This document shows, in pieces, positions 14,627-62,743 of a DNA stretch of 64,000 bases. Every line of letters starts with the position of its first letter. Within the stretch, counting starts at the first letter, position 1. Origin of the DNA: Pseudomonadota bacterium (GTDB taxonomy: Bacteria > Pseudomonadota > Alphaproteobacteria > Sphingomonadales > Sphingomonadaceae); the NCBI GenBank assembly GCA_039033835.1, contig JBCCBW010000019.1, forward strand, positions 14,036-78,035, in the 5' to 3' direction. The notes beneath the pieces are model-generated. The model worked only from the letters and a program-made list of their open reading frames with translations, did no database searches and was not told the DNA's origin. A program made the position numbers and the translations under genes.

Positions 14627-15796
14627 TTATCGCCTCTGGTCGAACCGCCGCCCGACCATCGCTGCTGCAATATTCGTCTTCTGCACGTCGATCGCTCCAC
14701 CGGCGATCCCCCACGCATAAGCATCGCGCAGGCGCTGCTCCATCCCGTAATCGGTGTGGTAGCCGTATCCGCCCATCACCTGCATGCCGAGCGCGGCGAC
14801 TTCGCGCACGATTTCATTGGCGTAGCATTTGGCGAGGCTGCTCTCATAGACGGTCGGCAGCCCGTCATTCTGTTTGGCGGCGTTTGTGGCTGCGCGGTGA
14901 ATCAGCAGCCGCGCCGCATCGACCTTCATCGCCATCTCGGCGAGCTTCATCTGCACCGCCTGAAAATCCACGATCGGTTTTCCGAACGCTTCGCGCTCCT
15001 GCGTATATTGAAGCGCTTGTTCCAATGCCGCCGCCGCCACGCCGAGGCTCTGGGTCGCGTTGCCACACCGTTCCAGCCCAAACGCGCTCATCAGCTTGCC
15101 GAAGCCGCCAGCGCCGATGATGACGTTCTCGCCCGGCACTTTGACGTCCTCGATCGCATAATCGGCGGTTGGAATACCGCGAAAGCCCATCAGCTCCTCG
15201 CGCTTGCCGAACTGCATGCCTTCCATGTCTTTTTCGAGCAGGATCGCGCCGATCCCTTTCGCTCCCGGATCGTCGGTAAAGCGGCAATAGGTGACGTAAT
15301 AATCCGAATGGCCGCCGCCGCTCGTCCAGCGTTTGTAGCCGTTGACCACGTAACCGTTGCCATCCGCTGTCGCCTTTGTCGTAAGATCGGTGAGCGCGGT
15401 TCCGGCATCAGGCTCGGACATCGACACAGCGACGATCTTCTCGCCCTTGATGACCTCGGGCAGAATACGCGCTTTCATTTCCGACGAGCCGAACCGGTCG
15501 ATGGTGCGAACCGGCCCGGTCAGCGCTTCAAACACCGGGAACGCCACCGCGTTGGTTATCTGCGCAAATTCCTCAAGCACGATCAACGCCTCGATATGCC
15601 CGAGACCCAGCCCGCCATATTCGGTCGGCAGGTTCACGCCGAGGAACCCCATCTCGCCATAGGTGCGCAGCATGGCGGGCGGGACCGGATAGTCGTTCCG
15701 CTCCATGTCGCGCGCCAGCTCCGGCAGCTCGGCACGGGCGAATTTGCGGGCGGTTTCCTGCAGCTCGCGCTGCTCATCGGTCAGTGTAAAGTCCAT
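14627..15796 (-). CDS. acyl-CoA dehydrogenase
   Basis: SMSEPDAGT, NGYKRWTS, RxxFGKPI, GGYGY motifs. Confidence 0.93.
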   Translation of the reverse strand: MDFTLTDEQRELQETARKFARAELPELARDMERNDYPVPPAMLRTYGEMGFLGVNLPTEYGGLGLGHIEALIVLEEFAQITNAVAFPVFEALTGPVRTIDRFGSSEMKARILPEVIKGEKIVAVSMSEPDAGTALTDLTTKATADGNGYVVNGYKRWTSGGGHSDYYVTYCRFTDDPGAKGIGAILLEKDMEGMQFGKREELMGFRGIPTADYAIEDVKVPGENVIIGAGGFGKLMSAFGLERCGNATQSLGVAAAALEQALQYTQEREAFGKPIVDFQAVQMKLAEMAMKVDAARLLIHRAATNAAKQNDGLPTVYESSLAKCYANEIVREVAALGMQVMGGYGYHTDYGMEQRLRDAYAWGIAGGAIDVQKTNIAAAMVGRRFDQRR

Positions 15797-15910
15797 CGGC
15801 CCTGCTTAAGTCCTCTCTGCTCGTGACTGTCCCCTAGCGCATTTGTGAGGACGACGCGCAAGAGCCGACAGCATAGAGTCCGGCTTCAGATGAAACGAGG
15901 GAAAGCGATC

Positions 15911-16570
15911 ATGACCAAACTCCATTCCAGGCTTCATTCGAGTTTGGGCCCCAATCCGCGCCTGGTGCGCATGTTCCTTATCGAAAAGGGCCTTGAGGAA
16001 GGGAAGGATTTCGAGCGCGTCCACTACGACATCATCACTGGCGAAAACCGTCAGGATGAGGATTACATCAAGAAGAACCCGCTCGGCACGATTCCGATGC
16101 TGGAACTGGACGACGGCACCTGCCTCACCGAAAGCTGGCCGATCTGCGAGTTTATCGAGGAAGAGCACCCGGAGCCCAATCTTTTCGGCACCACGTCGCG
16201 CGAACGCGCCGAGGTGCGCAAATGGGCGCGGCTGTTCGATCAGGAGGTCGTGGTGCCGATGACGATGGGCTTTCGTGCGGGTGGCGGACGCCCGATGTTC
16301 GAACCACGCATGCCGGTGGTCAGCCCTGATGCGGGAGCGGAACTGTCCGCCATGTCGGATGAGAAATGGCGGTACTTCGACAGCGTCCTCGGCGACAGCA
16401 ATCACTTTGCGCTCGGCCGGTTTACGTTCGCCGACCTGATCGTGTTCTGCTTTGCCAATTTCGGCTTCACGGTGGGGTGGAAGCTGCCCGAGGGCACGGA
16501 CAATCTCGCGCGCTTTATCGACACCCATAACAAGCGGGCCAGCGCGGGCATCTGGCAGCAGCCGGAATAA
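15911..16570 (+). CDS. glutathione S-transferase family protein
   Basis: GPNPRLVRMFL, NPLGTIPMLELDDG, ESWPICEFI, FTFADL; start at ATG 15911 after GAGGG RBS. Confidence 0.9.
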   Translation: MTKLHSRLHSSLGPNPRLVRMFLIEKGLEEGKDFERVHYDIITGENRQDEDYIKKNPLGTIPMLELDDGTCLTESWPICEFIEEEHPEPNLFGTTSRERAEVRKWARLFDQEVVVPMTMGFRAGGGRPMFEPRMPVVSPDAGAELSAMSDEKWRYFDSVLGDSNHFALGRFTFADLIVFCFANFGFTVGWKLPEGTDNLARFIDTHNKRASAGIWQQPE

Positions 16571-17337
16571 TGGCCGACCTCAGCGGAAAGGTCGCAATCG
16601 TCACCGGCTGCGCTAATGGGATCGGCGCTGCGACAGTGCGGCGATTGCGGGCGGACGGAGCACAGGTGCTCGGCACCGACATTCTGACGGAGGAAGGCGG
16701 GGCATTGTGCGAAGAAGCGGACGCTCGCTTTGCGGTGCAGGATGTTTCGAACATCGCGCGTTGGCCGCAGATCGTTGCGGATGCGGTGGAGACGTTCGGG
16801 CGACTTGATATCCTCATCAACAATGCGGGCACGGTTTCGTCGTTATCGATAGAGGACGTAACCGATGAAGCTTGGGAGCGGATCATCGGCATCAATCTGA
16901 CCGGGACGATGGCAGGGTGCCGTGCGGCGATTGCGGCGATGAGAAACAATCCCGGTGGCGCAAAGGGCTCCATCATCAACATCGCATCCACCACGGCGAT
17001 GGCGCCATTACCCACCGATGTCGCCTATTCCGCGAGCAAAGGCGCGGTGCGGGTGCTGTCCAAGTCTGTCGCCACCCATTGCGCGCAGGCAGGGTATGCG
17101 ATCCGCTGCAACACGATCATTCCCGGCGCGACCGACACCAATATCCTCGCGCAGGCTGAGAACGTGACGCCCGGTTTGAAAGAGGCAGTCGCGGCGACAT
17201 CGCCAATGAAGCGGCTCGCCGATCCGGCTGAAACGGCAGCTGCGATTGCCTTTCTAGCAAGCGACGAATGCCCTTATATGACCGGCGCTGAAATGCTGGT
17301 CGATGGCGGAATGATGTCGTTGCATCCCGGCTTTTAG
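16570..17337 (+). CDS. classical SDR (hydroxysteroid/cyclic alcohol dehydrogenase-like)
   Basis: TGCANGIG, NNAG, YSASK. Confidence 0.92.
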   Translation: MADLSGKVAIVTGCANGIGAATVRRLRADGAQVLGTDILTEEGGALCEEADARFAVQDVSNIARWPQIVADAVETFGRLDILINNAGTVSSLSIEDVTDEAWERIIGINLTGTMAGCRAAIAAMRNNPGGAKGSIINIASTTAMAPLPTDVAYSASKGAVRVLSKSVATHCAQAGYAIRCNTIIPGATDTNILAQAENVTPGLKEAVAATSPMKRLADPAETAAAIAFLASDECPYMTGAEMLVDGGMMSLHPGF

Positions 17338-18644
17338 TTAGTCGCCATTCTTTCGAGATGGCCTGACGCGCGCATCTGCGCAGCAGTCCACGCAAACACC
17401 GCCATCGCGAAGATACCTGACACCAGACAGACCGCAAAAACCGCAATCGTCAGCGATAATGAACCTTGCGTAGGCGCGAGCCAGTCGCTGACCCAGCCTA
17501 TCACCGCAAGCCCCAGCGCCTGCCCCACGAGGTTGTTAAAGAACAACGCGATCGCCACGGCAAACCCGCGCTGACCCGGCTCGACCGCCGCCTGAATGCC
17601 CGACAGGATCGGTGCCTGGCTCGCGACATAGATCGCATAGGCGAAGGCGAAGTAGATCAGGAAGGGCCAGAAACTATCGGATGACAGACTCATTCCCAGC
17701 GGCAGCACACAGCCAAGGCTCACTATGCCCGGAAGCCATGCACGCCAGCGTTCGTCGCGCCGGGTCAGCCAGCCTGCGACATAACCTCCCAGGATCGGCC
17801 CCGGAATGCCGCCGATCAGGAAGGCTAGGCCGAGATAGATGCCGACATCGCCGCTCGAAATGCCGAAATTGCGGATCATCACCGCCGCCATCCAGAACGC
17901 GAGCGCATATCCGATCATGATCTGCACCGCCCAGCCGACCGCCAGCCCCATGAATACCCGGTTGCCGAACAGCACCCGCGCGGTTTCGAACAGCGGCTGT
18001 TGCTCGATTTTGGCGTCCTTCGGCGCATGGCGACCCCGGCGAGGCTCTCGCATGGTGAAATATACGACCGCTCCGATCACGATCCCCGGCAGGCCCATCA
18101 GGACAAACGCCCAACGCCAGCCAAACAGCTCGTTCAATTGCCCTCCGACCAGCAGGCCTCCTGCGGTGCCCATGGTTGCGCCGATGGTCAGAAAACCCAT
18201 CGCCTTGGCCAGCTCTTCACGGCGGAAGTAGTCGGCGACGAGACTTTGCGAGGCCGGACCCGAGCACCCCTCACCCACGCCAACGCCGGTGCGGGCAAAG
18301 AATAGCGTCCAGAATCCGGTCGCCAGCCCGCACAGAGCCGTCATCCCGCTCCAGAATGCAATTGCTCCAGCGACAATATTCTTGCGGACGGATCGATCAG
18401 CCAGTCGTGCCGCAGGAAATCCGACGATCACATAAGTCGCGGCAAAGGCCAGTCCGCCGAGCAAGCCGATTTGACCATCGGAAAAGGAGAACTCGGCCTT
18501 GATGTCTTCCAGCAGGATCGAGAACACCAGCCGGTCCGCGATCGAGAACATGCTGACCAGCGTCAGCAGCCCGAGCACATACCAACGATACGCGCCTTCG
18601 CCTTTGGCAGGAGCTGAACTAGGAGGATTAGATTGTGTCGACAT
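17334..18644 (-). CDS. MFS transporter (spinster-like)
   Basis: DRLVFSILLEDIK, ARLADRSVRK motif A, 12 TM pattern. Confidence 0.9.
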   Translation of the reverse strand: MSTQSNPPSSAPAKGEGAYRWYVLGLLTLVSMFSIADRLVFSILLEDIKAEFSFSDGQIGLLGGLAFAATYVIVGFPAARLADRSVRKNIVAGAIAFWSGMTALCGLATGFWTLFFARTGVGVGEGCSGPASQSLVADYFRREELAKAMGFLTIGATMGTAGGLLVGGQLNELFGWRWAFVLMGLPGIVIGAVVYFTMREPRRGRHAPKDAKIEQQPLFETARVLFGNRVFMGLAVGWAVQIMIGYALAFWMAAVMIRNFGISSGDVGIYLGLAFLIGGIPGPILGGYVAGWLTRRDERWRAWLPGIVSLGCVLPLGMSLSSDSFWPFLIYFAFAYAIYVASQAPILSGIQAAVEPGQRGFAVAIALFFNNLVGQALGLAVIGWVSDWLAPTQGSLSLTIAVFAVCLVSGIFAMAVFAWTAAQMRASGHLERMATN

Positions 18645-18771
18645 TTAGATCATGGCGTGGCGAAAATGGTGAGGTTGCACGACCCGGCGCGCAGCGGCCT
18701 TCCAGGCCGTGAGCACCGGAAGCGTGGAAAGTCGCCATTTGCAGGCCGTCAGGGCTGAATGTCGACACAAT

Positions 18772-19551
18772 CTAATGATGAGGTCGGGCGTCGAGGCCGT
18801 TGTCCACCGGGATCGTCAGGCCGCTCAGGAACCGCGCATCGTCCGAAGCGAGAAACGCCACGCACCCGGCGACATCGCGCGGATGACCCAGCGCATCGCT
18901 GGGCAGCGGGCCGTCGGGGATTTCCATTGGCTCCTCCCCGGCCCGGCCGGACACCTCCATCACCATCGGCGTTTCGATACCGCCGGGTGCCAGCGCATTG
19001 CAGCGGATGCCATACCCCTCATCCTGACAATGGACAGCGATCGAGCGGGTCATAGAGCTGATCCCGCCTTTCGCCGCCGTGTAGGCCGGGATATTACCAT
19101 AGCCCATAAGCGCCGCGGTCGAGGCCATATTGACGATCGAGGAACCTCCGCCGCCGACTGTTTTGTGCCGATGCTTCATCAGCGGCAGCGCGTATTTGCA
19201 GCCCAGAAACGTTCCGACCACATGAATGTCGAGGTGCAGCTTGAAATGATCGAGCGGGCAATCCTCGATACTTTCAAAGATCACATTGCCGGCATTGTTG
19301 ACGAGGATGTCGAGACCGCCGTGACGTTCCTCGACCGCGTGCATCACGTCCTTCCATTGCTGCTCATCGGTCACATCGAGCGCCATCGCATCTCCGCCGA
19401 TGCTATCCGCCACCTGATGCGCCTTTTCGACCTCGCGATCGGTGACGATTACATGCGCGCCTTCTTCGGCCAACCGCTCGCAATCGGCTTTGCCCAGCCC
19501 CATCGCGCCGCCTGTCACCAGCGCAATTTTGCCCGCTACCCGTCCTGCCAT
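18772..19551 (-). CDS. classical SDR
   Basis: TGGAMGLG, NNAG, YTAAK. Confidence 0.92.
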   Translation of the reverse strand: MAGRVAGKIALVTGGAMGLGKADCERLAEEGAHVIVTDREVEKAHQVADSIGGDAMALDVTDEQQWKDVMHAVEERHGGLDILVNNAGNVIFESIEDCPLDHFKLHLDIHVVGTFLGCKYALPLMKHRHKTVGGGGSSIVNMASTAALMGYGNIPAYTAAKGGISSMTRSIAVHCQDEGYGIRCNALAPGGIETPMVMEVSGRAGEEPMEIPDGPLPSDALGHPRDVAGCVAFLASDDARFLSGLTIPVDNGLDARPHH

Positions 19552-19686: not shown

Positions 19687-21006
19687 ATGATGGATAACGC
19701 CGAAGTCGCACGCTTGCGAGCGCTGATGGAATGGGAGGGCAGCCGGACGATGCCGCCGCAGGGTTTCCCGAAACTGCCCGACATGCCCGCTGCGCGCTAC
19801 ACCTCACCAGAATATTTCGCGCTCGAACAGGAGCATATCTTTCGCAAGAGCTGGCTGTTCGCGGGCCATATCGACGAGATTCCCGAACCCGGCTGTTACA
19901 TGCGCTGGGACAATGCGGGCGATCCGATCGTCATCGTGCACGGAATGGATGGAAAGGTCCGCGCCTTCTACAACACCTGCCGCCATCGCGGCGCGCCAGT
20001 GGTGACCGAGGATTTCGGCAAATCGTCGCGGCTGATGTGCGGCTATCACAACTGGACGTACAGGACCGACGGATCGCTGATCGGCGTGCCCGAACGGCAG
20101 GATTTCCCGCCCGATTTCGACATGTCATGCCGCGGATTGCTGCCTGTGCGCTGCGAAATGCTGGGGAACGTGATCTTCGTGAATTTCGACGCAGATGCGA
20201 TGCCGCTGACCCAATGGCTTGGTCCACTCATGCGCGAATGGGACGAGTTTGCGTTCGACAAGGTGAAGCTCGCCGCGCGCCATTCTTTCGAGCTCAATTG
20301 CAACTGGAAGGTCGCGATGGAGGCCAACATGGAGGTTTATCATGTGCCATTCATCCACCCGGAAACCGTCGCCCCGCTGGTCGATCCCAAACGCAACCTC
20401 AACACGATGTACCCCCACGGCCACGCCCGCATGTTGGCACCGCCACCACGCACGACGGATCGCGAGCATGTTCGCGCGGTCGATAGCCCGCCCGAATGGC
20501 AGCAGATCGAGAGCGTCGGTGAACTCGGGCGGACCTGCACGCAAAGCTACACGCTGTTCCCAAACTGGGTTTCCCCGCTCTCGAACTATTTCGTGCCGCC
20601 GCTATTGTTCTGGCCGACATCGCTGAACACGACGCGGCTGGAGCTGGTGACGATGGCGCTCGATTGGGGGGACGGCCCAGCGCCCGACCTCTGGACTGTG
20701 CCCGATGAAACCCAGCCTAATGGCCGCCAGATGAGTCCGATCATTCTCGAAGACACGCAGTTCGGCGAGGCGATCCAACATTCGATGCAAAGCTCCGCGT
20801 TTCGCAGCGTGCCGCTGTCCTATCAGGAAGCGCGGATCTACTCGTTCCACCAATCCTGCGACCGAATGATCGGCATCGAAAACGTGCCTGAAGAGCTTCG
20901 GATCGAGCAGGTGATCGGAGAGGAATGGGTGTGGCCCAACGACCCTCGCGTAACACAGATGGAGGCTGAGGCCTCGACCAGAGACACGCGCGACGCCGCT
21001 GAATGA
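19687..21006 (+). CDS. Rieske non-heme iron oxygenase alpha subunit (1)
   Basis: CRH...CGYH Rieske motif and EVYHVPFIH mononuclear Fe motif; start uncertain (19657 or 19687). Confidence 0.92.
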   Translation: MMDNAEVARLRALMEWEGSRTMPPQGFPKLPDMPAARYTSPEYFALEQEHIFRKSWLFAGHIDEIPEPGCYMRWDNAGDPIVIVHGMDGKVRAFYNTCRHRGAPVVTEDFGKSSRLMCGYHNWTYRTDGSLIGVPERQDFPPDFDMSCRGLLPVRCEMLGNVIFVNFDADAMPLTQWLGPLMREWDEFAFDKVKLAARHSFELNCNWKVAMEANMEVYHVPFIHPETVAPLVDPKRNLNTMYPHGHARMLAPPPRTTDREHVRAVDSPPEWQQIESVGELGRTCTQSYTLFPNWVSPLSNYFVPPLLFWPTSLNTTRLELVTMALDWGDGPAPDLWTVPDETQPNGRQMSPIILEDTQFGEAIQHSMQSSAFRSVPLSYQEARIYSFHQSCDRMIGIENVPEELRIEQVIGEEWVWPNDPRVTQMEAEASTRDTRDAAE

Positions 21007-21226
21007 CTACGCATTTCTGATAGGCCCGACGCTACGGAAAACTCCGCTTTCCGCCGTCGTGTGACGATAATGCCGCACTTTGTCGCACTTACTAGCGCTT
21101 TTGCTAGATGAGCGGCGCGACCCTGCCCCTACACTTCCAATCATACCGGAAGACGCAAAATCATGCGCGCCGGCGTTGGGGAACAGGGCCTCGGCCAAGG
21201 TCGAGGCTCTATAGGGAGAGAGCACG

Positions 21227-23764: not shown

Positions 23765-23787
23765 TCGAACACGCAGTTCGTCACGAG

Positions 23788-23820
23788 CGGGCGGGCCTTT
23801 TGGTCCGCCCGTTTGGCTTT
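23788..23820 (+). terminator. putative rho-independent terminator after the TonB-dependent receptor
   Basis: CGGGCGGGCC-TTTT-GGTCCGCCCG stem followed by TTTGGCTTT. Confidence 0.65.
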
Positions 23821-50173: not shown

Positions 50174-50185
50174 GGGACGCAAGCC

Positions 50186-54632: not shown

Positions 54633-54767
54633 CGCCTGAATCTCCTTTACAGTGCTCGTGGCGTAGCCAGCAGAAACCCGCAATGCCCCTGCGTAAAGTA
54701 TGAGGCGAATCACATAAGATGGGTTAGGCTGCGCGCGACGGGACTTGAGGAGAGGAGGAGCCAGACC

Positions 54768-56447: not shown

Positions 56448-57872
56448 ATGAACGAGATCAAAGACATCAAACGCCAAGATCGCTGCCCGGGCATGACCTA
56501 TACCGACATGCTCGAAGGCGACACGCGCACGCCGCCGGATTACCTGTTCGAAGAAACGAACATCGACATGCCGAACGATCCGCTGCCGATCGAGCCGTAT
56601 GTGAGCGAGGAATATGCAGCGCTCGAACGCGAGAAGCTGTGGCCGAATGTCTGGCTGTTCGCCGCGCGCGAGGATGAGCTGCCCGATCCCGGCGACACGG
56701 TCGTGTTCGAGATCAACGAGAAAAGCTTCCTGATCACCCGCCAGCGCGACGGCAGCGTGCGCGCGTTCTACAATGTTTGCCTGCACCGCGGACGCAAGTT
56801 GCGCACCGAAGATGGCAACACCACGCAGTTCCGCTGCCCGTTCCACGGCTTCACCTGGAAAACCGATGGATCGCTGAAAGAAATTCCGTGCGAATGGGAC
56901 TTCAAGCATTTGCAGGACAAGGACATGAGCCTGCCCGAAGTTCGCGTCGAGCTGTGGCAGGGCTTTGTGATGATCACCGAGAACGCCGATCTGCCGGACT
57001 TCAAGACCTGGCTCGGCCCGGCAGCCGATCACTACGACAATTACGACATGGAAAACCGCTACACCGGCATGTGGGTCGCGCGGAAGATCCCGGCCAACTG
57101 GAAGGCCACAGCCGAGGCCTTCATGGAAGCGTGGCATTCAATCACCACGCACCCGCAATTGCTGCCGTTTCTCGGCGATGCCAACAGCCGCTACGACCTG
57201 ATCGGCGACCACTTCAATCGTGCGATCACTCCGTCAGGCGTGCTCAGCCCGCATCTCAAGGGCAAGACTCAGCAATATGTGCTCGACAAGATGGCTGAGT
57301 TCTCCGGTGGATCGGATGCCGAGACCAATCGCCGCTATGCCGCGAGTGAGGAGCAGGTCGAGATCGACGAGAGCGATCCGTTGCAAGCGCGCAAGCTGTT
57401 GGCCGAGGCCAGCCGGGCTGGCTTCGCCGAAGCATATGGCCACGATTATTCGGACAAGTCGGACTCCGAAATTCTCGACAATTTCACCTACAACATCTTC
57501 CCCAACTTCGCGCCGTGGATCGGGTATCTTCCGACGCTGTGCTACCGCTGGCTGCCCGGCGACACGCCCGATTGGTGCGTGATGGAGATCCGCTTGCTGT
57601 TCCCGACGCCCAAGGGCGAGAAGCGACCGCGCGCAGTCGAGAAGGTCACTATTCCCGAAGACCAACCCTTCGCCTGGGCCAAGGATGTCATGGGCGAAGC
57701 GCTGGCGGGTGTGTTCGATCAGGACATGGCGAACCTGCCGCATGTGCAGACGGGCATGAAGGCATCGGGCAACGGGATCATGGAACTCGGCGCGTATCAG
57801 GATAGCCGTGTGCGCCATTTCCAGACGACTTTGCGGAAATATATCGACGGCGAGCTGCCAGCCGCTAAGTAG
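56448..57872 (+). CDS. Rieske non-heme iron oxygenase alpha subunit (3)
   Basis: CLH...CPFH and EAWHSITTH motifs, DQDMANL. Confidence 0.92.
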   Translation: MNEIKDIKRQDRCPGMTYTDMLEGDTRTPPDYLFEETNIDMPNDPLPIEPYVSEEYAALEREKLWPNVWLFAAREDELPDPGDTVVFEINEKSFLITRQRDGSVRAFYNVCLHRGRKLRTEDGNTTQFRCPFHGFTWKTDGSLKEIPCEWDFKHLQDKDMSLPEVRVELWQGFVMITENADLPDFKTWLGPAADHYDNYDMENRYTGMWVARKIPANWKATAEAFMEAWHSITTHPQLLPFLGDANSRYDLIGDHFNRAITPSGVLSPHLKGKTQQYVLDKMAEFSGGSDAETNRRYAASEEQVEIDESDPLQARKLLAEASRAGFAEAYGHDYSDKSDSEILDNFTYNIFPNFAPWIGYLPTLCYRWLPGDTPDWCVMEIRLLFPTPKGEKRPRAVEKVTIPEDQPFAWAKDVMGEALAGVFDQDMANLPHVQTGMKASGNGIMELGAYQDSRVRHFQTTLRKYIDGELPAAK

Positions 57873-57880
57873 CTCTGTCC

Positions 57881-58633
57881 ATGAGCATCTCTGTCGACCT
57901 CTCCGGGCGCAATGCGCTGATCACCGGCGCATCTTCGGGCCTTGGATCTCGTTTTGGGCGCATCCTCGCTGCAAATGGAGCGAATGTCGCGCTGGGCGCC
58001 CGGCGCAAAGATCGGCTTGAGGCGTTGGCCAACGAGATTGGGCCGCAAGCCGCTGCGGTAGAGATGGATGTGGCGCGCGAGGCAGATATCGTCGCGGGCT
58101 TCGACGCTGCCGAGCGGGCTTTCGGAACCATCGATACAGTGATCGCCAATGCCGGTGTCGATGGCGCGGGCATGATCAACGATATGTCCGAAGAGGAAAT
58201 CGAGCGGACGCTGGCGATCAATCTTAAGGGGGCAATCCTGACCGCTCGCGAAGGTGCCAAGCGTATGATCGCTGCGGGCAATGTGAAGGGCCGGATCGTG
58301 ATGATCGCCTCGATCACCGCTTTCGAACCCTCGCCTGGTCTGGTTGCCTACTCGGCCAGCAAGGCCGGCGTAGTGCAGGCGGCGCGCAGCATGGCCCGTG
58401 AATGGGCGCGCGCTGGTATCTGCGTGAACACGATCTCCCCCGGCTACATCCGCACTGCGATCAACGACGAATGGTTCGACACCGATCTCGGCAAGAAGCA
58501 AATCGCGCGCTTTCCCAAGCGCCGGTTGATGGCGGAAGAAGGGCTGGACGGCCCGGTGCTGTTCCTGTGCTCCGATGCAGGGGAGTTTGTGACGGGCGCC
58601 GATTTCGTGCTGGATGACGGGCAGACGTTATAG
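57881..58633 (+). CDS. classical SDR
   Basis: TGASSGLG, ANAG, YSASK. Confidence 0.92.
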   Translation: MSISVDLSGRNALITGASSGLGSRFGRILAANGANVALGARRKDRLEALANEIGPQAAAVEMDVAREADIVAGFDAAERAFGTIDTVIANAGVDGAGMINDMSEEEIERTLAINLKGAILTAREGAKRMIAAGNVKGRIVMIASITAFEPSPGLVAYSASKAGVVQAARSMAREWARAGICVNTISPGYIRTAINDEWFDTDLGKKQIARFPKRRLMAEEGLDGPVLFLCSDAGEFVTGADFVLDDGQTL

Positions 58634-58645: not shown

Positions 58646-59338
58646 ATGCCGCATGACCGCAAGCTCTTTATCGCCTCGCCATCGATTGGCGTGAACCCTT
58701 CGGATTTCGAGTTCTTCGAAGAGCAGCGCCTCCATCGCGAAGCTGATCATTCCGCAAGGCCTCTGCACACGCAGACTGGAAACAAGGCTGCTACTCGTTT
58801 TGGTCTTCCCCAATACAAGGAAACGCCGCGTTTAAAGGTCGCACTTAAAAACAAACCGCTCGACTTCTATGGCTTCGAGCGCTGGATTCTCTCTTCGCGA
58901 GCTAAGGACCTGTTGCATGCGATGGACCCAGCCGCCTTCGATTTCAGGAAATGCGAAACAAGCGCACCGCCCCGACACAACATTGACAATTATTGGATTG
59001 GGAAGGTGCGCCGCGTGATCGAGGAATTCGACCGTGGTGCCTCGAACTTCGAAAAAGCGGGTAGGCAGTGGGATGTCGGTTTAGAAGAGTGGACTTTCAA
59101 TCACGCGATCAGAAAGCTGAACACATTGGTGCTTCATCCCGGACACGAGGAATCGTTGGCGTTCTATATCCTCGATTATTCTCTCTACCCCATTTTTGAT
59201 GGGCGGCTCGTCGAGGCAATCCGGGGTGCAGGGCTACGCGGCCTGATGTTCTCTCCGTTGCAATGGCCGGACAAAGGCGATGTGAGAACTGTCTACATCG
59301 AGAACTACGGCTACTGGAAGGATCAAGGCGCGCTATAG
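58646..59338 (+). CDS. hypothetical protein, Imm11/DUF1629-like
   Basis: WILSSRAKDLLHAMDPAAFDFRKC...YWIGKVRR pattern resembles DUF1629/Imm11 proteins; lower GC. Confidence 0.55.
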   Translation: MPHDRKLFIASPSIGVNPSDFEFFEEQRLHREADHSARPLHTQTGNKAATRFGLPQYKETPRLKVALKNKPLDFYGFERWILSSRAKDLLHAMDPAAFDFRKCETSAPPRHNIDNYWIGKVRRVIEEFDRGASNFEKAGRQWDVGLEEWTFNHAIRKLNTLVLHPGHEESLAFYILDYSLYPIFDGRLVEAIRGAGLRGLMFSPLQWPDKGDVRTVYIENYGYWKDQGAL

Positions 59339-59363: not shown

Positions 59364-59750
59364 TTATGCTTTCGCCGCCACCTGCTTCGCATCGAAATAA
59401 TGGATGCGCAGTTCCTTTAGCAGCCCATCCTCAAACGCGCCGCATTCGTTGACGGTCTGGCTGAACGTTTCGCCAGTGCGCATTGACGTCATGGTGAGCG
59501 TCAGAACCGTCACCGCGTGCGTATCTCCGCCGGTGATATCGTGAATATCGACGCTAGCTTCGGCCCAGGTACCGTACATCGCCGCTGCGCAGCGTTGCAG
59601 CGCATCCTTTCCGCGCCACTCACCGCCGAAGGGCAGGCATTCGGCTTCGTAAAGCACGAAATCCGGATGGATCAGCGATTCCACTTTGTCCCAGTCGCGC
59701 GCCCCAGCCGCCATATAGACCGCTGATAGCAATTCGCGCGGTGCGCTCAC
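59364..59750 (-). CDS. NTF2/SnoaL-like protein (SnoaL_2 type)
   Basis: LIHPDFVLYEAECLPFGGEWRGKD, ELRIHYFD; start inferred at GTG 59750. Confidence 0.8.
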   Translation of the reverse strand: MSAPRELLSAVYMAAGARDWDKVESLIHPDFVLYEAECLPFGGEWRGKDALQRCAAAMYGTWAEASVDIHDITGGDTHAVTVLTLTMTSMRTGETFSQTVNECGAFEDGLLKELRIHYFDAKQVAAKA

Positions 59751-59757
59751 CGCTGAG

Positions 59758-59988
59758 TTACTCAATCGTCCCGACCAGATCGCCAACCTTGTACTTCGTG
59801 CCTTCCTCACCGGTCGGGCGGATCACCCCGCCCGCTTGCGCTTCGATCTCGACCGTCGTCTTGTCGGTTTCGGCGGTGTAGATGATATCGCCTTTTGCGA
59901 CTTCCTCTCCATCGCCGAACATCCATTCGGACAGGGTCACTTCGGTTGCGCTCATCCCGAGCTTGGGGATGCGGATTTCTTCGGCCAA
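59758..59988 (-). CDS. stand-alone lipoyl carrier domain
   Basis: IPKLGMS...ETDKTTVEIEAQAGG (lipoyl Lys in DK); 76 aa with no E2 catalytic domain. Confidence 0.9.
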   Translation of the reverse strand: MAEEIRIPKLGMSATEVTLSEWMFGDGEEVAKGDIIYTAETDKTTVEIEAQAGGVIRPTGEEGTKYKVGDLVGTIE

Positions 59989-59991
59989 GGC

Positions 59992-60978
59992 TCAGTCCTT
60001 TCCTACCGAGGCTTTGATCTGTGCGACAATATCGCTCTTTTGCGGGATCCATGCCTGCTCAAGATGCGTCGCGAACGGCACTGCAGAGAATGTCCCGCCG
60101 ATGCGGCGCACCGGGCCTTTGAGGTTGTCCCAACATTTCTCCTGGATGTTCGCAGCGATCTCCGCGCCGGTGCCGAACGGGCGCACCGCCTCATGCAGGG
60201 TTAGCGCGCGCCCGGTCTTGTTGACGCTCGCAAGCACGGTTTCCTCGTCATAGGGAGCGATGGTGCGCAGGTCGATCACTTCGACGCTGATACCTTCCTT
60301 CTCCAGCTCACCGGCCACTTCCAGCGCGTCGAGCACAGTGCGGCCATAGGTGATGAGCGAGATGTCGGAGCCTTCTTTCGCCACCGCCGCCTTGCCCAGC
60401 GGCACGCGGTATCCGGGGCCGGGATCTTCCGATGTGAGCCCGTAGCACAGGATGTTTTCGATAAAGATCACCGGGTCGTTGGCATCGATCGCGGACCGCA
60501 TCAGACCGCGCGCATCGGCGGCGTTGGATGGCGTCACCACATGGATCCCGGCGACGTGAGCAAACCATGCCTCCAGCATATCCGAATGTTGCCCGCCGAA
60601 GCCGACACCCACGCCGGTGGTGGTGCGGATAACGATCGGGCACGGCGTCTGCCCGCCGCTCATGAAGCGGAGTTTAGCCGCGTGGTTGACGATCTGGTCC
60701 ATGCACACGCCCACGAAGTTCATCAGCATGATCTCTGCGATGGGACGCTGCCCGGCGAGCGCCGCGCCTACAGCGGCACCGATAATCGCGGTTTCGGAAA
60801 TCGGCGTCGCGCGGATGCGGTTCTCGCCGTATTTCTCAGACAGGCCGGAGGTGATCTTAAACACCCCGCCGCCTTGTTTGGCCGCGACATCTTCGCCCAG
60901 GCAGAACACGCCATCATCTTCGGCCATCGCCTCGTCAATCGCGAGGTTGAGCGCCTGCGTCATGGTAATCTCGGCCAT
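59992..60978 (-). CDS. 2-oxoacid/acetoin dehydrogenase E1 beta subunit
   Basis: GEDV, TPISETAIIG, QHSDMLE, VIDLRTIAP. Confidence 0.93.
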   Translation of the reverse strand: MAEITMTQALNLAIDEAMAEDDGVFCLGEDVAAKQGGGVFKITSGLSEKYGENRIRATPISETAIIGAAVGAALAGQRPIAEIMLMNFVGVCMDQIVNHAAKLRFMSGGQTPCPIVIRTTTGVGVGFGGQHSDMLEAWFAHVAGIHVVTPSNAADARGLMRSAIDANDPVIFIENILCYGLTSEDPGPGYRVPLGKAAVAKEGSDISLITYGRTVLDALEVAGELEKEGISVEVIDLRTIAPYDEETVLASVNKTGRALTLHEAVRPFGTGAEIAANIQEKCWDNLKGPVRRIGGTFSAVPFATHLEQAWIPQKSDIVAQIKASVGKD

Positions 60979-61946
60979 CAGGCAGTCTCCTCAAGCACGT
61001 CTTTGTAAATCTCATTGATGTCCGGCAGCGGCGCATCGAGTGCATGCTGAACCGCCGCGTCGATATCGGCGTCGATCTTGGCAACGATCGCGTCGAGTTC
61101 CTCTTCGGTGAACTGCCGTTCAAGCATGACCTGCCGCAGCTTTGGTAACGGGTCTTCGGCCTGCATTTCCGCAAGGTGCTCAGGCGGCATGTAGGAGAAG
61201 TCCGAGCCGAAGAAGTGGCCCATCATGCGGTAACACATTGCCTCGACCAGAACCGGCCCCTTGCCCGAACGCGCGTGCTCGACAGCTTCCTCCATCGCAG
61301 GGTAGACTTCATTGACATTGTTACCGTCGACTTTGATGCCCTTCATCCCGTATCCCGCAGCGCGGCTTGAGATGTCGGTACTGTCGGTATGGTCGGCATA
61401 GGCGGTATGCTCGCCATAGCGGTTGTTCTGGCACAGAAAGACAACCGGCAGCTTATAAAGCTGGGCCATGTTCATCGCTTCGTGGAAGCCGCCAATATTG
61501 GCCGCGCCGTCGCCAAAGCTGACGAGTGTGACCCGGCCATCGCCATTGTTCTGGCTCGCCATCGCCAGGCCGTTGGCAATCGGCAGTCCGCTGCCGACAA
61601 CGCCGGTGGTGACCATGATCCCGGTTTCGGGATCGGTGATGTGCATCGTGCCGCCTTTGCCTTTGCAGGTGCCGGTCGCCTTGCCGAGACACTCGCCCCA
61701 CCATTTCTCCAGCGGAATACCCTTCGCCGTCTGTTCGCCCTGCCCGCGATAGGTGCACACGACATAATCGTCGTCCTCCAGCGCAGCCATAGCGGCGGCA
61801 GAGACGAGCTCCTGCCCGCGCACACAATAATACATGACGGCAACTTTGCCCTGCATCAGCAGCTCGCGGAATTTCTCGTCCGTGCGGTTCACCTTCATCG
61901 TGCGGGTGTAGATATCAAGCAGCTTGTCGCGTTCTATCTCGGCCAT
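60978..61946 (-). CDS. 2-oxoacid/acetoin dehydrogenase E1 alpha subunit (TPP)
   Basis: GKGGTMH, GDGAAN...QNN TPP motif, YRMMGH. Confidence 0.93.
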   Translation of the reverse strand: MAEIERDKLLDIYTRTMKVNRTDEKFRELLMQGKVAVMYYCVRGQELVSAAAMAALEDDDYVVCTYRGQGEQTAKGIPLEKWWGECLGKATGTCKGKGGTMHITDPETGIMVTTGVVGSGLPIANGLAMASQNNGDGRVTLVSFGDGAANIGGFHEAMNMAQLYKLPVVFLCQNNRYGEHTAYADHTDSTDISSRAAGYGMKGIKVDGNNVNEVYPAMEEAVEHARSGKGPVLVEAMCYRMMGHFFGSDFSYMPPEHLAEMQAEDPLPKLRQVMLERQFTEEELDAIVAKIDADIDAAVQHALDAPLPDINEIYKDVLEETA

Positions 61947-61978
61947 GGATCGGAGCCTTCCTGTAATGGATTAAATGC

Positions 61979-62743
61979 TTAGAACTGGACGCGCTGCGTG
62001 AAGCCGCCATCGACCACGACATTCGCGCCGGTCATGTATGGGCAGGCCGGGCTCGCGACGAAGACCACCGCCTTCGCGACTTCCTCCGGCTCGCCAAAGC
62101 GGCCCATCGGTATCTTCGCCAGCGTCCCTTCGTAAAGCGGCGGCACGGCGTCCTTGATCATCTCCCAGTTTCCACCAGAATAGTAGATCGCGCCGGGTGA
62201 GACGCAGTTTACGCGGATGCCCATCGGCGCCAACGCCTGGCTCAGCTGCGAACCATGGGTGATGAGCGCGGCCTTAAGTGCGTTGAAAGCTTGCGGTGCC
62301 ACGAAAGTCTCAAGCGCTGCGGTCGATGACATCAGCACAATTGACCCGCTGTCCGAGGCTTCGAGATGCGGGGTCAGCACTTCGATCGCATGGACTGCGC
62401 CAAGGATATCCATGTCGAGACCCTGCTGCCAATCGCCTGTCCCGCCGGTGCCAGAAGAGCTGGCCATGTGAACGAAGATATCGCAGCCGCCCAGCGCATC
62501 CGCCGCATCGCCAATCCATTTCTTGTAAGCGTCCGCGCCGCTCGCCATGTCGAAGACCTCGCCATGAACCTTGCCCGGACCAGCCGCGTCTATTTCTTTC
62601 TTCGCGGCCTCGATCTTGTCTTCCTTGCGGCTGAAAAACGCGACATCCGCGCCTTCGGCAGCAAAGTGCCGGAGCGAGGCGAGGCCAAGGCCGTGCGCAC
62701 CGCCATTCATGATGACTTTCTTGCCGGTAAGTCCCAGATCCAT
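61979..62743 (-). CDS. SDR family protein (catalytic Tyr replaced by Phe)
   Basis: NGGAHGLG, FNALK at the YxxxK position, RVNCVSPG; start ATG 62743. Confidence 0.88.
   Translation of the reverse strand: MDLGLTGKKVIMNGGAHGLGLASLRHFAAEGADVAFFSRKEDKIEAAKKEIDAAGPGKVHGEVFDMASGADAYKKWIGDAADALGGCDIFVHMASSSGTGGTGDWQQGLDMDILGAVHAIEVLTPHLEASDSGSIVLMSSTAALETFVAPQAFNALKAALITHGSQLSQALAPMGIRVNCVSPGAIYYSGGNWEMIKDAVPPLYEGTLAKIPMGRFGEPEEVAKAVVFVASPACPYMTGANVVVDGGFTQRVQF

What the first reader, a model, noticed from the sequence alone, without database searches (positions are those of the whole stretch)
14627..62743. About 48-kb catabolic super-cluster for an unidentified hydrophobic (terpenoid/steroid/oxidised-lipid) substrate
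Seen: nearly every gene here is a redox, CoA, hydrolase or transport gene. The set is 3 Rieske alphas, 2 P450s, a KstD-like FAD enzyme, a Mo enzyme plus mobA, 8 SDRs, 3 MDRs, 7 NTF2-fold proteins, 2 VOC, 2 ThuA-like, 3 ACADs, 2 CoA ligases, DUF35/thiolase, E1alpha/beta/lipoyl, a TonB receptor and an MFS, in many short divergent units. Knowledge: P450s, KstD-like enzymes, paired ACADs, DUF35/SCP2-type thiolases and FadD19-like ligases are typical of steroid and diterpenoid catabolism. I do not recognise the 9,10-seco ring-opening genes (kshB, hsaABCD/tesA-D) or aromatic meta-cleavage genes. Inference: an uncharacterised pathway for a cyclic or oxygenated lipid-like compound, not matching any pathway I can name.
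Basis: partly seen in the sequence, partly recalled or inferred. Interest (0 to 1): 0.82.

Follow-up and report, generated by a model that had tools for sequence, protein, structure and literature searches.

The report
Conserved Erythrobacter catabolic cluster, substrate unknown
A 48-kb block of about 50 uptake, oxygenase, redox and CoA-dependent genes in a marine Erythrobacter is real and is kept together across its whole bacterial family. It probably works as one regulated pathway for breaking down a fatty, acid-like natural compound that nobody has yet identified.

Summary

New evidence:
- **Source:** the window is an Erythrobacter-type chromosome, not an island.
- **Core synteny:** the 20-gene core (KstD-like gene to CoA ligase 2) keeps its order in 78 of 80 species-level genomes, at 63-90% protein identity.
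- **Both arms conserved:** they have the same order and ends in Erythrobacter and Altererythrobacter, while the outside flanks differ.
- **Compact version:** Novosphingobium tardum packs orthologues from all three parts into about 20 kb.
- **Shared promoter element:** CAAA(A)GTG recurs in promoter regions of all three parts and is conserved across species, next to a 90%-conserved LuxR-type regulator.

This argues for one functional unit, probably one regulon.

No protein reaches a curated equivalog cut-off, and only two reach broad subfamily cut-offs. The cluster does not match the estrogen (edc) or bile-salt clusters I compared. It lacks the 9,10-seco steroid genes, any standard two-domain extradiol ring-cleavage dioxygenase, enoyl-CoA hydratases and redox partners.

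Best reading: uptake and oxidative, beta-oxidation-like breakdown of a hydrophobic carboxylate with enone, alcohol and branched or alicyclic features. The substrate is unidentified.

In this genome the KstD-like gene carries a +1 frameshift.

The parts
14627..15796 (-). Acyl-CoA dehydrogenase 1 (homomeric type); left end of the conserved block
   Evidence: Pfam Acyl-CoA_dh_N/M/1. 90% identical orthologue at the same place in E. rubeus and GH1-10.
15911..17337 (+). GST (15911-16570) and SDR1 (16570-17337), one unit
   Evidence: Pfam. The GST is generic, not LigE/F/G-like. The pair is conserved in L084, L085 and L088.
17334..19551 (-). SDR2 (18772-19551) and MFS transporter (17334-18644)
   Evidence: Pfam. 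The MFS is nearest the anion:cation symporter (D-galactonate) family, below its cut-off. The pair is also kept in the compact N. tardum cluster.
19687..25138 (+). Rieske alpha 1 (19687-21006), TonB-dependent receptor (21227-23764), Rieske alpha 2 (23915-25138)
   Evidence: Pfam. Motifs intact. Only distant PDB relatives. The RHO2 start is fixed by the contig's own protein P0121.
25232..26179 (-). NmrA-like atypical SDR
   Evidence: Pfam NmrA. 83-96% identical orthologues.
26308..27845 (+). MDR1, a CurA/PTGR1-like enone reductase (26308-27309), and a SnoaL_4 NTF2 protein (27306-27845)
   Evidence: Pfam. NCBIfam CurA model 248 bits against a cut-off of 440.
27842..28264 (-). 4HBT-fold acyl-CoA thioesterase
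   Evidence: Pfam 4HBT.
28345..29946 (+). Acyl-CoA ligase 1
   Evidence: Pfam AMP-binding. Passes NCBIfam subfamily PRK06187, 615 bits against 476.
29948..34255 (.). Variable accessory segment: VOC1, NTF2b, hyp1 and a CMD-family protein (minus strand), NTF2c, NTF2d (minus strand), P450a (32978-34255)
   Evidence: Pfam. Content differs between relatives: only NTF2c in GH1-10; CMD, NTF2c, NTF2d and P450a in E. rubeus.
34269..35925 (-). KstD/ChcC-like FAD-dependent desaturase, interrupted by a +1 frameshift in a G5 run at about 34731-34735
   Evidence: Pfam FAD_binding_2. The C-terminal part continues in another frame. G5 run. The extra base is present in an independent assembly of the source run and absent in a near-identical strain. 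Intact in relatives at 536-546 aa.
35993..37604 (.). SDR3 (+, 35993-36781) and SDR4 (-, 36795-37604)
   Evidence: Pfam. Found in 64 of 80 loci at 81-83% identity.
37730..38996 (+). NTF2e (SnoaL_4), ABM monooxygenase-like protein, MobA-like guanylyltransferase
   Evidence: Pfam. MobA model 95 bits against 152. Conserved in 56-65 of 80 loci.
38993..39994 (-). MDR2, a CurA/PTGR1-like enone reductase
   Evidence: Pfam ADH_N_2. NCBIfam CurA model 337 bits against 440. 85% median identity, matched in 75 of the loci searched.
40045..40086 (+). Conserved promoter element CTCCACGGACAAAAGTGCCAGTCG, with a second tandem copy GTAAAAGTATCAGTCG, upstream of the Mo enzyme
   Evidence: Kept in 68 of 70 orthologous upstream regions.
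40130..42280 (+). Cytoplasmic single-subunit Mo-bisMGD oxidoreductase with an N-terminal 4Fe-4S motif
   Evidence: Pfam Molybdop_Fe4S4, Molybdopterin and Molydop_binding. CxxCxxxC..C motif and no twin-arginine signal. No NCBIfam cut-off reached. Best PDB hit 138 bits. Large uncharacterised family.
42393..44561 (+). MDR3 (CurA-like), ThuA1, LEH/SnoaL_2 protein
   Evidence: Pfam. NCBIfam CurA model 331 bits against 440.
44664..52320 (+). Eight-gene run: P450b, ACAD2 (PimD-like), DUF35 OB-fold protein, SCP2-type thiolase-like protein, SDR5, ThuA2, ACAD3 (PimC-like), SDR6 (dienoyl-CoA-reductase-like)
   Evidence: Pfam. NCBIfam partial matches. P450b is 78-92% identical in 80 species. Order conserved. 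The thiolase keeps Cys79 but has Q285 and E335 in place of the canonical histidines.
52398..52928 (-). ORF with no family match; a strain-specific insert
   Evidence: No Pfam hit. No orthologue in 80 loci. Other genomes have a GNAT gene or nothing at this spot.
53010..54645 (-). Acyl-CoA ligase 2
   Evidence: Pfam AMP-binding. NCBIfam PRK07798 480 bits against 543. Follows SDR6 in 36 of 63 loci.
54768..55577 (+). LuxR/GerE-family regulator, 269 aa; candidate pathway regulator
   Evidence: Pfam GerE. 90% median identity in 36 loci. Present in N. tardum and in the pNL2 sister cluster. Conserved AAAGT element upstream.
55813..56346 (-). VOC2 (Glyoxalase_4), weakly methylmalonyl-CoA-epimerase-like
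   Evidence: Pfam. PDB search. 84% median identity.
56448..58633 (+). Rieske alpha 3 (56448-57872) and SDR7 (57881-58633)
   Evidence: Pfam. Distant from all solved Rieske oxygenases by sequence. AlphaFold model has pLDDT 82, and fold search gives TM 0.54-0.61 at 16-20% identity.
58646..59338 (+). Imm11-family gene; a strain-specific insert in a variable slot, not part of the pathway
   Evidence: Pfam Imm11. No orthologue in relatives. Third-position GC is 0.63.
59364..62743 (-). Operon: SDR8, E1 alpha, E1 beta, 76-aa lipoyl carrier, SnoaL_2 protein; right end of the conserved block
   Evidence: Pfam. E1 beta passes PRK09212, 351 bits against 321; E1 alpha scores 280 against 394. Lipoyl-lysine motif ETDKT. 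Same order in YT30, the JBDWPA MAG, A. arenosus and N. tardum.

Best explanation
This is one vertically inherited, functionally linked catabolic gene cluster of the family Erythrobacteraceae, and probably a single regulon. It takes up and breaks down a hydrophobic organic acid whose identity is still unknown.

**Shown**
- The gene inventory.
- Conservation as a block across genera, with the ends at 14627 and 62743.
- A compact re-packing in Novosphingobium tardum that joins genes from the left arm, core and right arm.
- A conserved CAAA(A)GTG promoter element in all three parts.
- A highly conserved LuxR-type regulator.

**Inferred mechanism**
1. A TonB-dependent receptor and an anion-symporter-type MFS import the compound.
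2. The P450s (nearest to terminal-methyl hydroxylases CYP142/125/124) and three orphan Rieske monooxygenases add oxygen, using redox partners encoded elsewhere.
3. Eight SDRs and an NmrA protein interconvert alcohols and ketones.
4. Three CurA/PTGR1-like reductases and a dienoyl-CoA-reductase-like SDR saturate C=C bonds next to carbonyls. A KstD/ChcC-like flavoenzyme desaturates a cyclic ketone.
5. NTF2/LEH-fold proteins isomerise, dehydrate or open epoxides.
6. Two CoA ligases, a PimC/PimD-like heteromeric ACAD, SDRs and a DUF35 plus thiolase-like pair shorten a carboxylated chain.
7. A ThDP-dependent E1 with a free lipoyl carrier cleaves a 2-oxo or acyloin intermediate.
8. A cytoplasmic bis-MGD molybdoenzyme with its own MobA does an unassigned step, either O2-independent hydroxylation or hydration, or a reduction.

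The chemistry fits an alicyclic or methyl-branched (isoprenoid-derived) carboxylate bearing enone and alcohol groups. It is not the canonical 9,10-seco steroid route.
For: - **Inventory:**
- **Origin:** Erythrobacter, with uniform GC.
- **Core synteny:** colinear in 78 of 80 species loci at 63-90% identity.
- **Left arm:** same order and same left end in E. rubeus and GH1-10.
- **Right arm:** same order and same right end in YT30 and a MAG, although their outside flanks differ.
- **Altererythrobacter arenosus:** keeps the whole block, 30 kb from Rieske 2 to Rieske 3 against 32.6 kb here.
- **N. tardum:** KstD-like, SDR3, Mo enzyme, P450b, ACAD2, ThuA2, ACAD3, GerE regulator, Rieske 3, NmrA, lipoyl, E1 beta, E1 alpha, SDR8, MFS, SDR2 and TBDR lie contiguous. 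The 15 orthologues among them are 59-87% identical.
- **Related sister cluster:** on N. aromaticivorans pNL2, with Rieske-ThuA, LuxR, OB-fold, thiolase (71%), ACAD (61%), E1 alpha/beta, VOC and TBDR.
- **Promoter element:** 6 exact hits in 2.6 kb of intergenic DNA against 0.33 in shuffles. Phylogenetic footprints upstream of the Mo enzyme (68/70), NTF2e/SDR4 (41 sequences), LuxR (39 sequences) and Rieske 3 (8/17).
- **Partial family matches that set the chemistry:**
- **P450 neighbours CYP142/125/124:**
- **MaoC hydratase:** in the Porphyrobacter clade, a canonical thiolase and a MaoC hydratase follow SDR6.
Against: - No substrate, expression or mutant data exist. No RNA run holds the sequence.
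- The cluster is cut into more than 20 short, often divergent units and has variable slots, so parts could serve different compounds.
- 27 of 63 loci lack ligase 2 and the right arm next to SDR6.
- A Rieske 2 orthologue sits in a different context in another Novosphingobium.
- No enoyl-CoA hydratase, ferredoxin, reductase or aldehyde dehydrogenase lies in the window.
- I noticed the promoter motif in these same sequences, so its shuffle statistic is post hoc.
- All functional assignments are at family level, below curated cut-offs.
Confidence: 0.6

Rival explanations
1. It is a historical mosaic. Several small, independent catabolic modules for different compounds happen to lie side by side, and they are conserved only because the genomes compared are related.
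For: - More than 20 short divergent units, with variable slots holding different accessory genes.
- The right arm is absent next to SDR6 in 27 of 63 loci.
- A Rieske 2 orthologue occurs with other partners in a Novosphingobium.
- Similar mixed islands are common on sphingomonad plasmids.
Against: - The flanks outside the block differ between genomes while the block and its ends persist.
- N. tardum re-packs genes of all three parts contiguously in a new order.
- The shared promoter element is conserved across species.
Confidence: 0.2
2. It degrades a sterol or bile-acid side chain and the A/B rings, with the ring-opening (ksh/hsa) genes encoded elsewhere in the genome.
For: - The P450s are nearest to steroid C26-monooxygenases CYP142/CYP125 among solved structures.
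- There is a KstD-family flavoenzyme, a heteromeric-type ACAD pair with a weak IpdE2 match, a DUF35 plus lipid-transfer-type thiolase, and TBDR/MFS uptake as in sphingomonad steroid clusters.
Against: - The intact KstD-like orthologue scores 421 bits against a cut-off of 789, and slightly higher on the ChcC1 model.
- The Rieske proteins carry Ring_hydroxyl_A, not the KshA-type domain.
- The window has no hsa/tes genes, MaoC/ChsH hydratases or amidases.
- Composition differs from the edc cluster and from Chol11 cluster 2.
- No paper in the library links Erythrobacter to steroid degradation.
Confidence: 0.12
3. It degrades plant- or alga-derived phenylpropanoid-type compounds such as lignans, diarylheptanoids/curcuminoids or lignin dimers.
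For: - Three CurA-like NADPH enone reductases.
- A GST plus SDR pair, an NmrA-like reductase, Rieske alphas with no adjacent beta-subunit gene, and TBDR plus MFS uptake.
Against: - The GST is generic; LigF scores only 36 bits.
- There is no ring-cleavage dioxygenase and no O-demethylase.
- The VOC proteins are small and weakly epimerase-like.
- Heavy investment in CoA and ACAD chemistry, and P450s of the lipid-hydroxylase type.
Confidence: 0.08
4. It degrades oxidised polyunsaturated lipids (algal oxylipins). The logic mirrors eicosanoid breakdown: SDR oxidation, enone reduction, omega-hydroxylation to a dicarboxylate, then beta-oxidation.
For: - PTGR1/LTB4-12HD-type reductases in three copies.
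- A dienoyl-CoA-reductase-like SDR, a PimC/PimD-like (dicarboxyl-CoA type) ACAD pair, LEH-fold proteins, a GST and a P450.
Against: - Three Rieske oxygenases, a KstD/ChcC-like cyclic-ketone desaturase, the Mo enzyme and the E1/lipoyl system have no place in that scheme.
- There is no hydratase.
Confidence: 0.08

Closest known systems
Related cluster on Novosphingobium aromaticivorans DSM 12444 plasmid pNL2 (about 145-181 kb), also on plasmids of Novosphingobium sp. ES2-1, THN1, N. humi and Croceicoccus marinus; itself uncharacterised
   Same: Same building blocks: a Rieske alpha followed by ThuA (47% each), a LuxR-type regulator, OB-fold protein plus thiolase (45% and 71%), a PimC-like ACAD (61%), E1 alpha/beta (37-40%), VOC, a KstD-like FAD enzyme, many SDRs and NTF2 proteins, a P450 and TBDRs.
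   Different: It is a paralogous version. It has no Mo enzyme or MobA, no CurA-like MDRs and a full-length E2 instead of a 76-aa lipoyl protein. It adds a GMC oxidoreductase and alpha/beta hydrolases, and it is plasmid-borne. I found no function published for it.
Mycobacterial/actinobacterial cholesterol side-chain genes (cyp125/cyp142, fadE pairs, chsH-ltp2, fadD19, kstD)
   Same: A P450 of the nearest solved type lies directly upstream of an ACAD, a DUF35 protein and a lipid-transfer-type thiolase. There is also a heteromeric-type ACAD pair, a KstD-family flavoenzyme and acyl-CoA ligases.
   Different: There are no MaoC (ChsH) hydratases. The thiolase keeps the nucleophilic Cys, unlike the Ltp2 aldolase (that point is from my own knowledge). 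No curated steroid model is reached. There are no ksh/hsa genes. The Mo enzyme, Rieske oxygenases, ThuA proteins and E1/lipoyl system are extra.
BbsAB-type / SCP2-type thiolase modules (benzylsuccinate, ibuprofen and resin-acid dit pathways)
   Same: A DUF35 OB-fold protein is translationally coupled to an SCP2-type thiolase-like protein. BbsB is the best solved match, at 158 bits. It is flanked by SDRs, an ACAD and a ligase.
   Different: The DUF35 protein has no Zn-ribbon cysteines. The thiolase-like protein has Gln and Glu where BbsB and SCP2 thiolases have the HD(C/A)F and GHP histidines, in 71 of 72 orthologues.
Estrogen (edc) cluster of Caenibius (Novosphingobium) tardaugens and bile-salt side-chain cluster 2 of Sphingobium sp. 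Chol11
   Same: Sphingomonad clusters with TBDR uptake, a P450 or Rieske oxygenase, ACADs and CoA chemistry.
   Different: edc relies on an extradiol dioxygenase, an indolepyruvate-ferredoxin oxidoreductase, MaoC hydratases and an HMG-CoA-synthase-like enzyme. The paper mentions no Mo, Rieske, ThuA or pyruvate-dehydrogenase-type proteins. The Chol11 cluster is defined by amidases and a KshA-type Rieske. None of these is here.

Membership tests
Aerobic 9,10-seco steroid catabolic cluster | A KstD (3-ketosteroid delta-1-dehydrogenase) orthologue | tested here: not met
   The intact E. rubeus orthologue scores 421 bits against a cut-off of 789 on PRK12844, and 439 against 1000 on the ChcC1 model. 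The window copy is frameshifted.
Aerobic 9,10-seco steroid catabolic cluster | KshA-type Rieske oxygenase with a KshB reductase | tested here: not met
   All three Rieske proteins carry Ring_hydroxyl_A. The NCBIfam and PDB neighbours are GbcA/Stc2/CntA or aromatic dioxygenases. The window has no reductase gene.
Aerobic 9,10-seco steroid catabolic cluster | HsaABCD/TesABD ring-opening enzymes (flavin monooxygenase, two-domain extradiol dioxygenase, MCP hydrolase) | tested here: not met
   No such Pfam families occur in 14627-62836. The VOC proteins are 178 aa and weakly epimerase-like. I could not check the rest of the genome.
Aerobic 9,10-seco steroid catabolic cluster | CYP125/CYP142-type C26 monooxygenase | tested here: inconclusive
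   CYP142/125 are the best solved matches, but only at 170-198 bits, and many unrelated P450s score within 30 bits of them.
Sphingomonad estrogen edc cluster | EdcB extradiol dioxygenase, EdcC indolepyruvate-ferredoxin oxidoreductase, MaoC hydratases | tested here: not met
   None occurs among the Pfam results. The edc gene list is from PMC7793797.
Chol11-type bile-salt side-chain cluster | Amidases plus a KshA-homologous Rieske monooxygenase next to SclA and a heteromeric ACAD | tested here: not met
   There is no amidase and no KshA-type Rieske. The cluster definition is from 10.1101/2021.05.19.444901.
Abietane diterpenoid (dit) cluster | DitA1/A2/A3 (Rieske alpha, beta and ferredoxin) and the DitC extradiol dioxygenase | tested here: not met
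   No Ring_hydroxyl_B match, no ferredoxin and no two-domain extradiol enzyme. SnoaL_4 proteins of about 180 aa could be divergent beta subunits; I did not test that. The dit features are from my own knowledge.
DMSO-reductase (bis-MGD) superfamily | Molybdop_Fe4S4, Molybdopterin and Molydop_binding domains, with four Cys for a 4Fe-4S cluster | tested here: met
   All three Pfam domains score above their gathering thresholds. The motif C-x2-C-x3-C...C is present. No functional subfamily cut-off is reached; the best is Fdh-alpha at 212 bits against 666. The Mo-ligand residue was not determined.
PimC/PimD-type heteromeric acyl-CoA dehydrogenase | A large and a small subunit matching TIGR03204 and TIGR03203 | tested here: inconclusive
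   ACAD3 scores 385 bits against 624. ACAD2 scores 217 against 653. These are the best models for both, but they fall below the cut-offs.
SCP2-type thiolase with a DUF35 partner (BbsAB-like) | Nucleophilic Cys plus the HD(C/A)F and GHP histidines; a Zn ribbon in the DUF35 partner | tested here: not met
   Cys79 is kept. Q285 and E335 replace the two histidines in 71 of 72 orthologues. The DUF35 protein has no CxxC pairs.
2-oxoacid/acetoin dehydrogenase complex | E1 alpha, E1 beta and an E2 with lipoyl and acyltransferase domains | tested here: inconclusive
   E1 beta passes subfamily PRK09212 (351 bits against 321). E1 alpha scores 280 against 394. The 'E2' is only a 76-aa lipoyl domain with the DK motif and no catalytic domain.

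The most novel reading that the evidence does not exclude
A family-wide, still undescribed pathway of marine and freshwater Erythrobacteraceae for an abundant natural isoprenoid-type acid, for example one derived from a carotenoid, sterol or phytol. It would use enzymology with no characterised precedent:
- a cytoplasmic single-subunit bis-MGD molybdoenzyme with a dedicated MobA
- ThuA-fold proteins coupled to orphan Rieske oxygenases
- a histidine-less SCP2-type 'thiolase'
- an E1/free-lipoyl C-C-cleaving system

All of this would be under one LuxR-type regulator that recognises a GGACAAA(A)GTG-type box.
Probability: 0.3. Interest if true: 0.8.

Novelty: new variant of a known kind. Interest (0 to 1): 0.58.

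Why it matters
Erythrobacteraceae are common in surface oceans, lakes and algal or cyanobacterial consortia. A 48-kb, roughly 50-gene pathway is kept at 63-90% identity in at least 80 species-level genomes, which means a natural compound is important enough to maintain it. Yet neither the compound nor most of the enzymes can be named.

Finding the substrate would add a carbon-cycle route for hydrophobic dissolved organic matter. It would also assign functions to large orphan families:
- the Mo-enzyme family, with about 1000 representatives at 50% clustering
- ThuA-like proteins
- orphan Rieske alpha subunits
- the variant thiolase

The conserved regulator and box, and the compact N. tardum version, make the question directly testable in cultured strains.

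Tried and rejected
- **Plasmid or mobile-island origin:** megablast of both halves against 72,556 plasmids gave only short 74-80% hits. GC is uniform. Rejected.
- **Exact look-up of a window protein in public assemblies:** not on record.
- **The N. resinovorum pSA2 hit:** it shares only the OB-fold, thiolase and ACAD module.
- **Mo-enzyme paralogues on plasmids:** 35-37% identical, sitting in other mosaic islands with no functional annotation.
- **P450b against plasmids:** the best hits are Nostoc, at 45%. Uninformative.
- **Literature:** ten searches found no paper on this cluster or its pNL2 relative. The edc and Chol11 clusters were read and rejected as matches.
- **RNA evidence:** no RNA run holds the sequence.
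- **Consensus promoter/terminator scan:** at or below shuffle expectation, uninformative.
- **Full 26-nt PWM of the Mo-enzyme box:** it finds only its own site. Only the CAAA(A)GTG core is shared.
- **Rieske 3 model and fold search:** no close structural relative; alpha3 and alpha3beta3 types are equally distant.
- **ThuA2:** no sequence match in the PDB.
- **My own errors, corrected:** my first MDR2 protein was out of frame, so it looked unconserved (corrected). My first call of ORF 'hyp3' was the wrong strand of VOC2.

Full report
**What is there**

I called genes by codon-position GC and scanned every ORF of 14627-62836 against Pfam.
- three Rieske alpha subunits
- two P450s
- a KstD-like FAD enzyme
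- a Mo-bisMGD enzyme with a MobA-like gene
- eight SDRs plus an NmrA protein
- three ADH_N_2-type MDRs
- seven NTF2-fold proteins
- two VOC and two ThuA proteins
- three acyl-CoA dehydrogenases (ACADs) and two AMP-ligases
- a DUF35 protein plus an SCP2-type thiolase
- E1 alpha, E1 beta and a 76-aa lipoyl protein
- a TonB-dependent receptor and an MFS transporter

Catalytic motifs of the Rieske proteins, the P450s, the 4Fe-4S site of the Mo enzyme and the lipoyl-lysine motif are intact. The stated limits are real gene ends.

**Where it comes from**

The window matches no plasmid, and GC is even at 0.58-0.63. P450b has homologues that are 81-97% identical over the best 120 hits, and every named one is Erythrobacter, Porphyrobacter or Qipengyuania. 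A scan of one genome per species returned 153 relatives, of which the best 80 loci were kept; nearly all are labelled Erythrobacter, Porphyrobacter, Qipengyuania or unclassified Sphingomonadales. The window's own Rieske 2 protein is on record on a 79-kb contig. An independent assembly of a marine metagenome run holds 99% of the sampled words of the 3.7-kb stretch I queried. To the left lie housekeeping genes: cytochrome b, aminopeptidase N and bPH_2 proteins.

**Is the clustering meaningful?**

- **Core.** tblastn of all window proteins against the 80 loci shows one conserved order. It runs KstD-like, SDR3, SDR4, NTF2e, ABM, MobA, MDR2, Mo enzyme, MDR3, ThuA1, LEH, P450b, ACAD2, DUF35, thiolase, SDR5, ThuA2, ACAD3, SDR6, ligase 2. 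It is colinear in 78 of 80 loci at 63-90% identity.
- **Left arm.** E. rubeus and Erythrobacter sp. GH1-10 carry ACAD1, GST, SDR1, MFS, SDR2, Rieske 1, TBDR, Rieske 2, NmrA, MDR1, SnoaL_4, 4HBT and ligase 1. The order is the same, and it starts right after the same bPH_2 genes.
- **Right arm.** Erythrobacter sp. YT30 and a MAG carry ligase 2, GerE regulator, VOC2, Rieske 3, SDR7, SnoaL_2, lipoyl, E1 beta, E1 alpha and SDR8, ending at the same SDR. Beyond that, the neighbours differ.
- **Altererythrobacter arenosus** has the whole block.
- **Novosphingobium tardum is the most telling.** It has a compact version of about 20 kb in which orthologues (59-87% identical) from all three parts are contiguous in a new order. 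They are KstD-like, SDR3, Mo enzyme, P450b, ACAD2, ThuA2, ACAD3, GerE, Rieske 3, NmrA, lipoyl, E1 beta, E1 alpha, SDR8, MFS, SDR2 and TBDR.

So the block persists while its flanks change, and its parts stay together after rearrangement. That argues for a functional unit.

There are exceptions:
- The segment between ligase 1 and the KstD-like gene is variable.
- There are variable slots after SDR6 and after SDR7.
- 27 of 63 loci, mostly the Porphyrobacter type, have no ligase 2 or right arm next to SDR6. One of these has a canonical thiolase and a MaoC hydratase there instead.

**Regulation**

A core CAAA(A)GTG, often GGACAAA(A)GTG, lies in the intergenic regions of:
- SDR2|Rieske 1
- Rieske 1>TBDR
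- NmrA|MDR1 (two copies)
- SDR4|NTF2e
- MDR2|Mo enzyme
- VOC2|Rieske 3

A variant, GCGTAAAGTA, lies upstream of the LuxR gene. There are six exact hits in 2.6 kb of intergenic DNA, against 0.33 in 5000 dinucleotide shuffles. I found the motif in these same sequences, so this number is not independent evidence.

Independent support comes from footprints across species:
- Upstream of the Mo enzyme, 68 of 70 species keep CCACGGACAAAAGT(G/A)TCAGTCG, followed by a -10-like TGTGGTAGTCT.
- The SDR4|NTF2e spacer keeps CCCAAAAGTGTCC.TTGTCC (41 sequences).
- The LuxR upstream region keeps CCCCTGCGTAAAGT..GAGG (39 sequences).
- Upstream of Rieske 3, the palindromic CACTGC(A/G)CAAAGTGCG is kept in 8 of 17 relatives.
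- Two of three left-arm relatives keep the element upstream of MDR1, Rieske 1 and the TBDR.

The LuxR-type protein is 90% identical across 36 loci. It is also present in N. tardum and in the pNL2 relative. I infer one regulon with this protein as the likely regulator. Binding has not been shown.

**What the enzymes say**

No protein reaches a curated equivalog cut-off. Only two broad subfamily models pass, for ligase 1 and E1 beta. The partial matches are:
- **P450s:** nearest to CYP142/125/124.
- **Rieske proteins:** only distantly related to any solved enzyme by sequence. A pLDDT-82 model of Rieske 3 is equally far from the alpha3 and alpha3beta3 types.
- **KstD-like protein:** falls between the KstD and cyclohexanone-carboxylate desaturase models, at about half of either cut-off.
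- **MDRs:** all three are CurA/PTGR1-like enone reductases. SDR6 is dienoyl-CoA-reductase-like.
- **ACAD2 and ACAD3:** PimD- and PimC-like.
- **MFS:** nearest the organic-anion symporter family.
- **VOC2:** weakly methylmalonyl-CoA-epimerase-like, not an extradiol dioxygenase.
- **Mo enzyme:** cytoplasmic and single-subunit. It belongs to a large uncharacterised family with 1035 representatives at E<=1e-30. Its best solved relatives are FdhF and acetylene hydratase, at 126-138 bits.

Missing from the window are enoyl-CoA hydratases, ferredoxins and reductases, aldehyde dehydrogenases, and ring-cleavage or ksh/hsa genes.

**Mechanism**

The inferred sequence is:
1. TBDR and MFS uptake of a hydrophobic carboxylate.
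2. Hydroxylation by the P450s and Rieske oxygenases.
3. Alcohol/ketone and enone chemistry by the SDRs, MDRs, the KstD-like enzyme and the NTF2 proteins.
4. CoA activation and chain shortening by the PimCD-like ACAD, SDRs and the DUF35/thiolase-like pair.
5. ThDP-dependent cleavage on a free lipoyl carrier.
6. One unassigned Mo-dependent step.

This fits an alicyclic or methyl-branched, isoprenoid-type acid best. Oxylipins, phenylpropanoid-type compounds and a steroid side chain remain possible.

**Comparison with known systems**

The edc estrogen cluster and the Chol11 bile-salt cluster differ in their defining genes. The closest relative is an equally uncharacterised cluster on N. aromaticivorans pNL2 and on other Novosphingobium and Croceicoccus plasmids. 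Ten literature searches found no description of either.

**Verdict**

It is a new variant of a known kind of system, and it is of moderate to good interest. The main reasons are its family-wide conservation, its orphan enzymology, and the clear experimental handles now available in cultured strains.

Noticed in passing
window 34269-35925 (site about 34731-34735): The KstD-like gene carries a +1 frameshift, a G5 run where relatives have G4. An independent assembly of the source marine metagenome run shows the same five G at depth 31. Two contigs of a second run lack the extra base, and one of them is near-identical to the window. Relatives have intact genes of 536-546 aa. It is either a real pseudogene in this population or a homopolymer sequencing error.
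   Followed up: partly
window 47461-48621, with DUF35 at 47039-47464: The SCP2-type thiolase-like protein keeps the nucleophilic Cys79. It has Gln285 and Glu335 where BbsB and SCP2 thiolases have the HD(C/A)F and GHP histidines, in 71 of 72 orthologues. Its DUF35 partner has no Zn-ribbon cysteines. This may be a different chemistry from thiolysis.
   Followed up: partly
window 58646-59338 and 52398-52928: An Imm11 (polymorphic-toxin immunity) gene and a 176-aa ORF with no family match sit in variable slots of the cluster. Neither has an orthologue in the 80 related loci. The Imm11 gene has low third-position GC (0.63). They look like strain-specific insertions unrelated to the pathway.
   Followed up: partly
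window 12257-14422: An autotransporter gene (beta-domain, third-position GC 0.63) lies between the bPH_2 genes and the cluster's first gene. In E. rubeus and GH1-10 the bPH_2 genes abut the cluster directly, so this is an insertion in this strain.
   Followed up: partly
window 40045-40086: The conserved promoter box upstream of the Mo enzyme is tandemly duplicated in this genome: GGACAAAAGTGCCAGTCG followed by GTAAAAGTATCAGTCG. The relatives examined show one copy.
   Followed up: partly
L092 (N. aromaticivorans pNL2, 140-189 kb): In the related plasmid cluster, an NTF2-family gene follows a Rieske alpha gene directly, the usual alpha-beta layout. The roughly 180-aa SnoaL_4 proteins of the window (27306-27845, 32364-32921) could therefore be divergent Rieske beta subunits encoded apart from their alpha partners.
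   Followed up: no
L093 (Porphyrobacter sp. AAP60) and L042: In the Porphyrobacter-type clade the cluster ends after SDR6 with a Pyrid_ox_like gene, a canonical thiolase and a MaoC hydratase, instead of ligase 2 and the right arm. In L042 the SnoaL_2, lipoyl and E1 module follows SDR6 directly. So the right end of the cluster is modular.
   Followed up: partly
window 25139-25231 and 55578-55812: These are GC-rich intergenic stretches with long inverted repeats, for example CCCCTCCCGCAAGCGGGAGGGG between the convergent Rieske 2 and NmrA genes. They are probably bidirectional terminators or REP-like elements.
   Followed up: no
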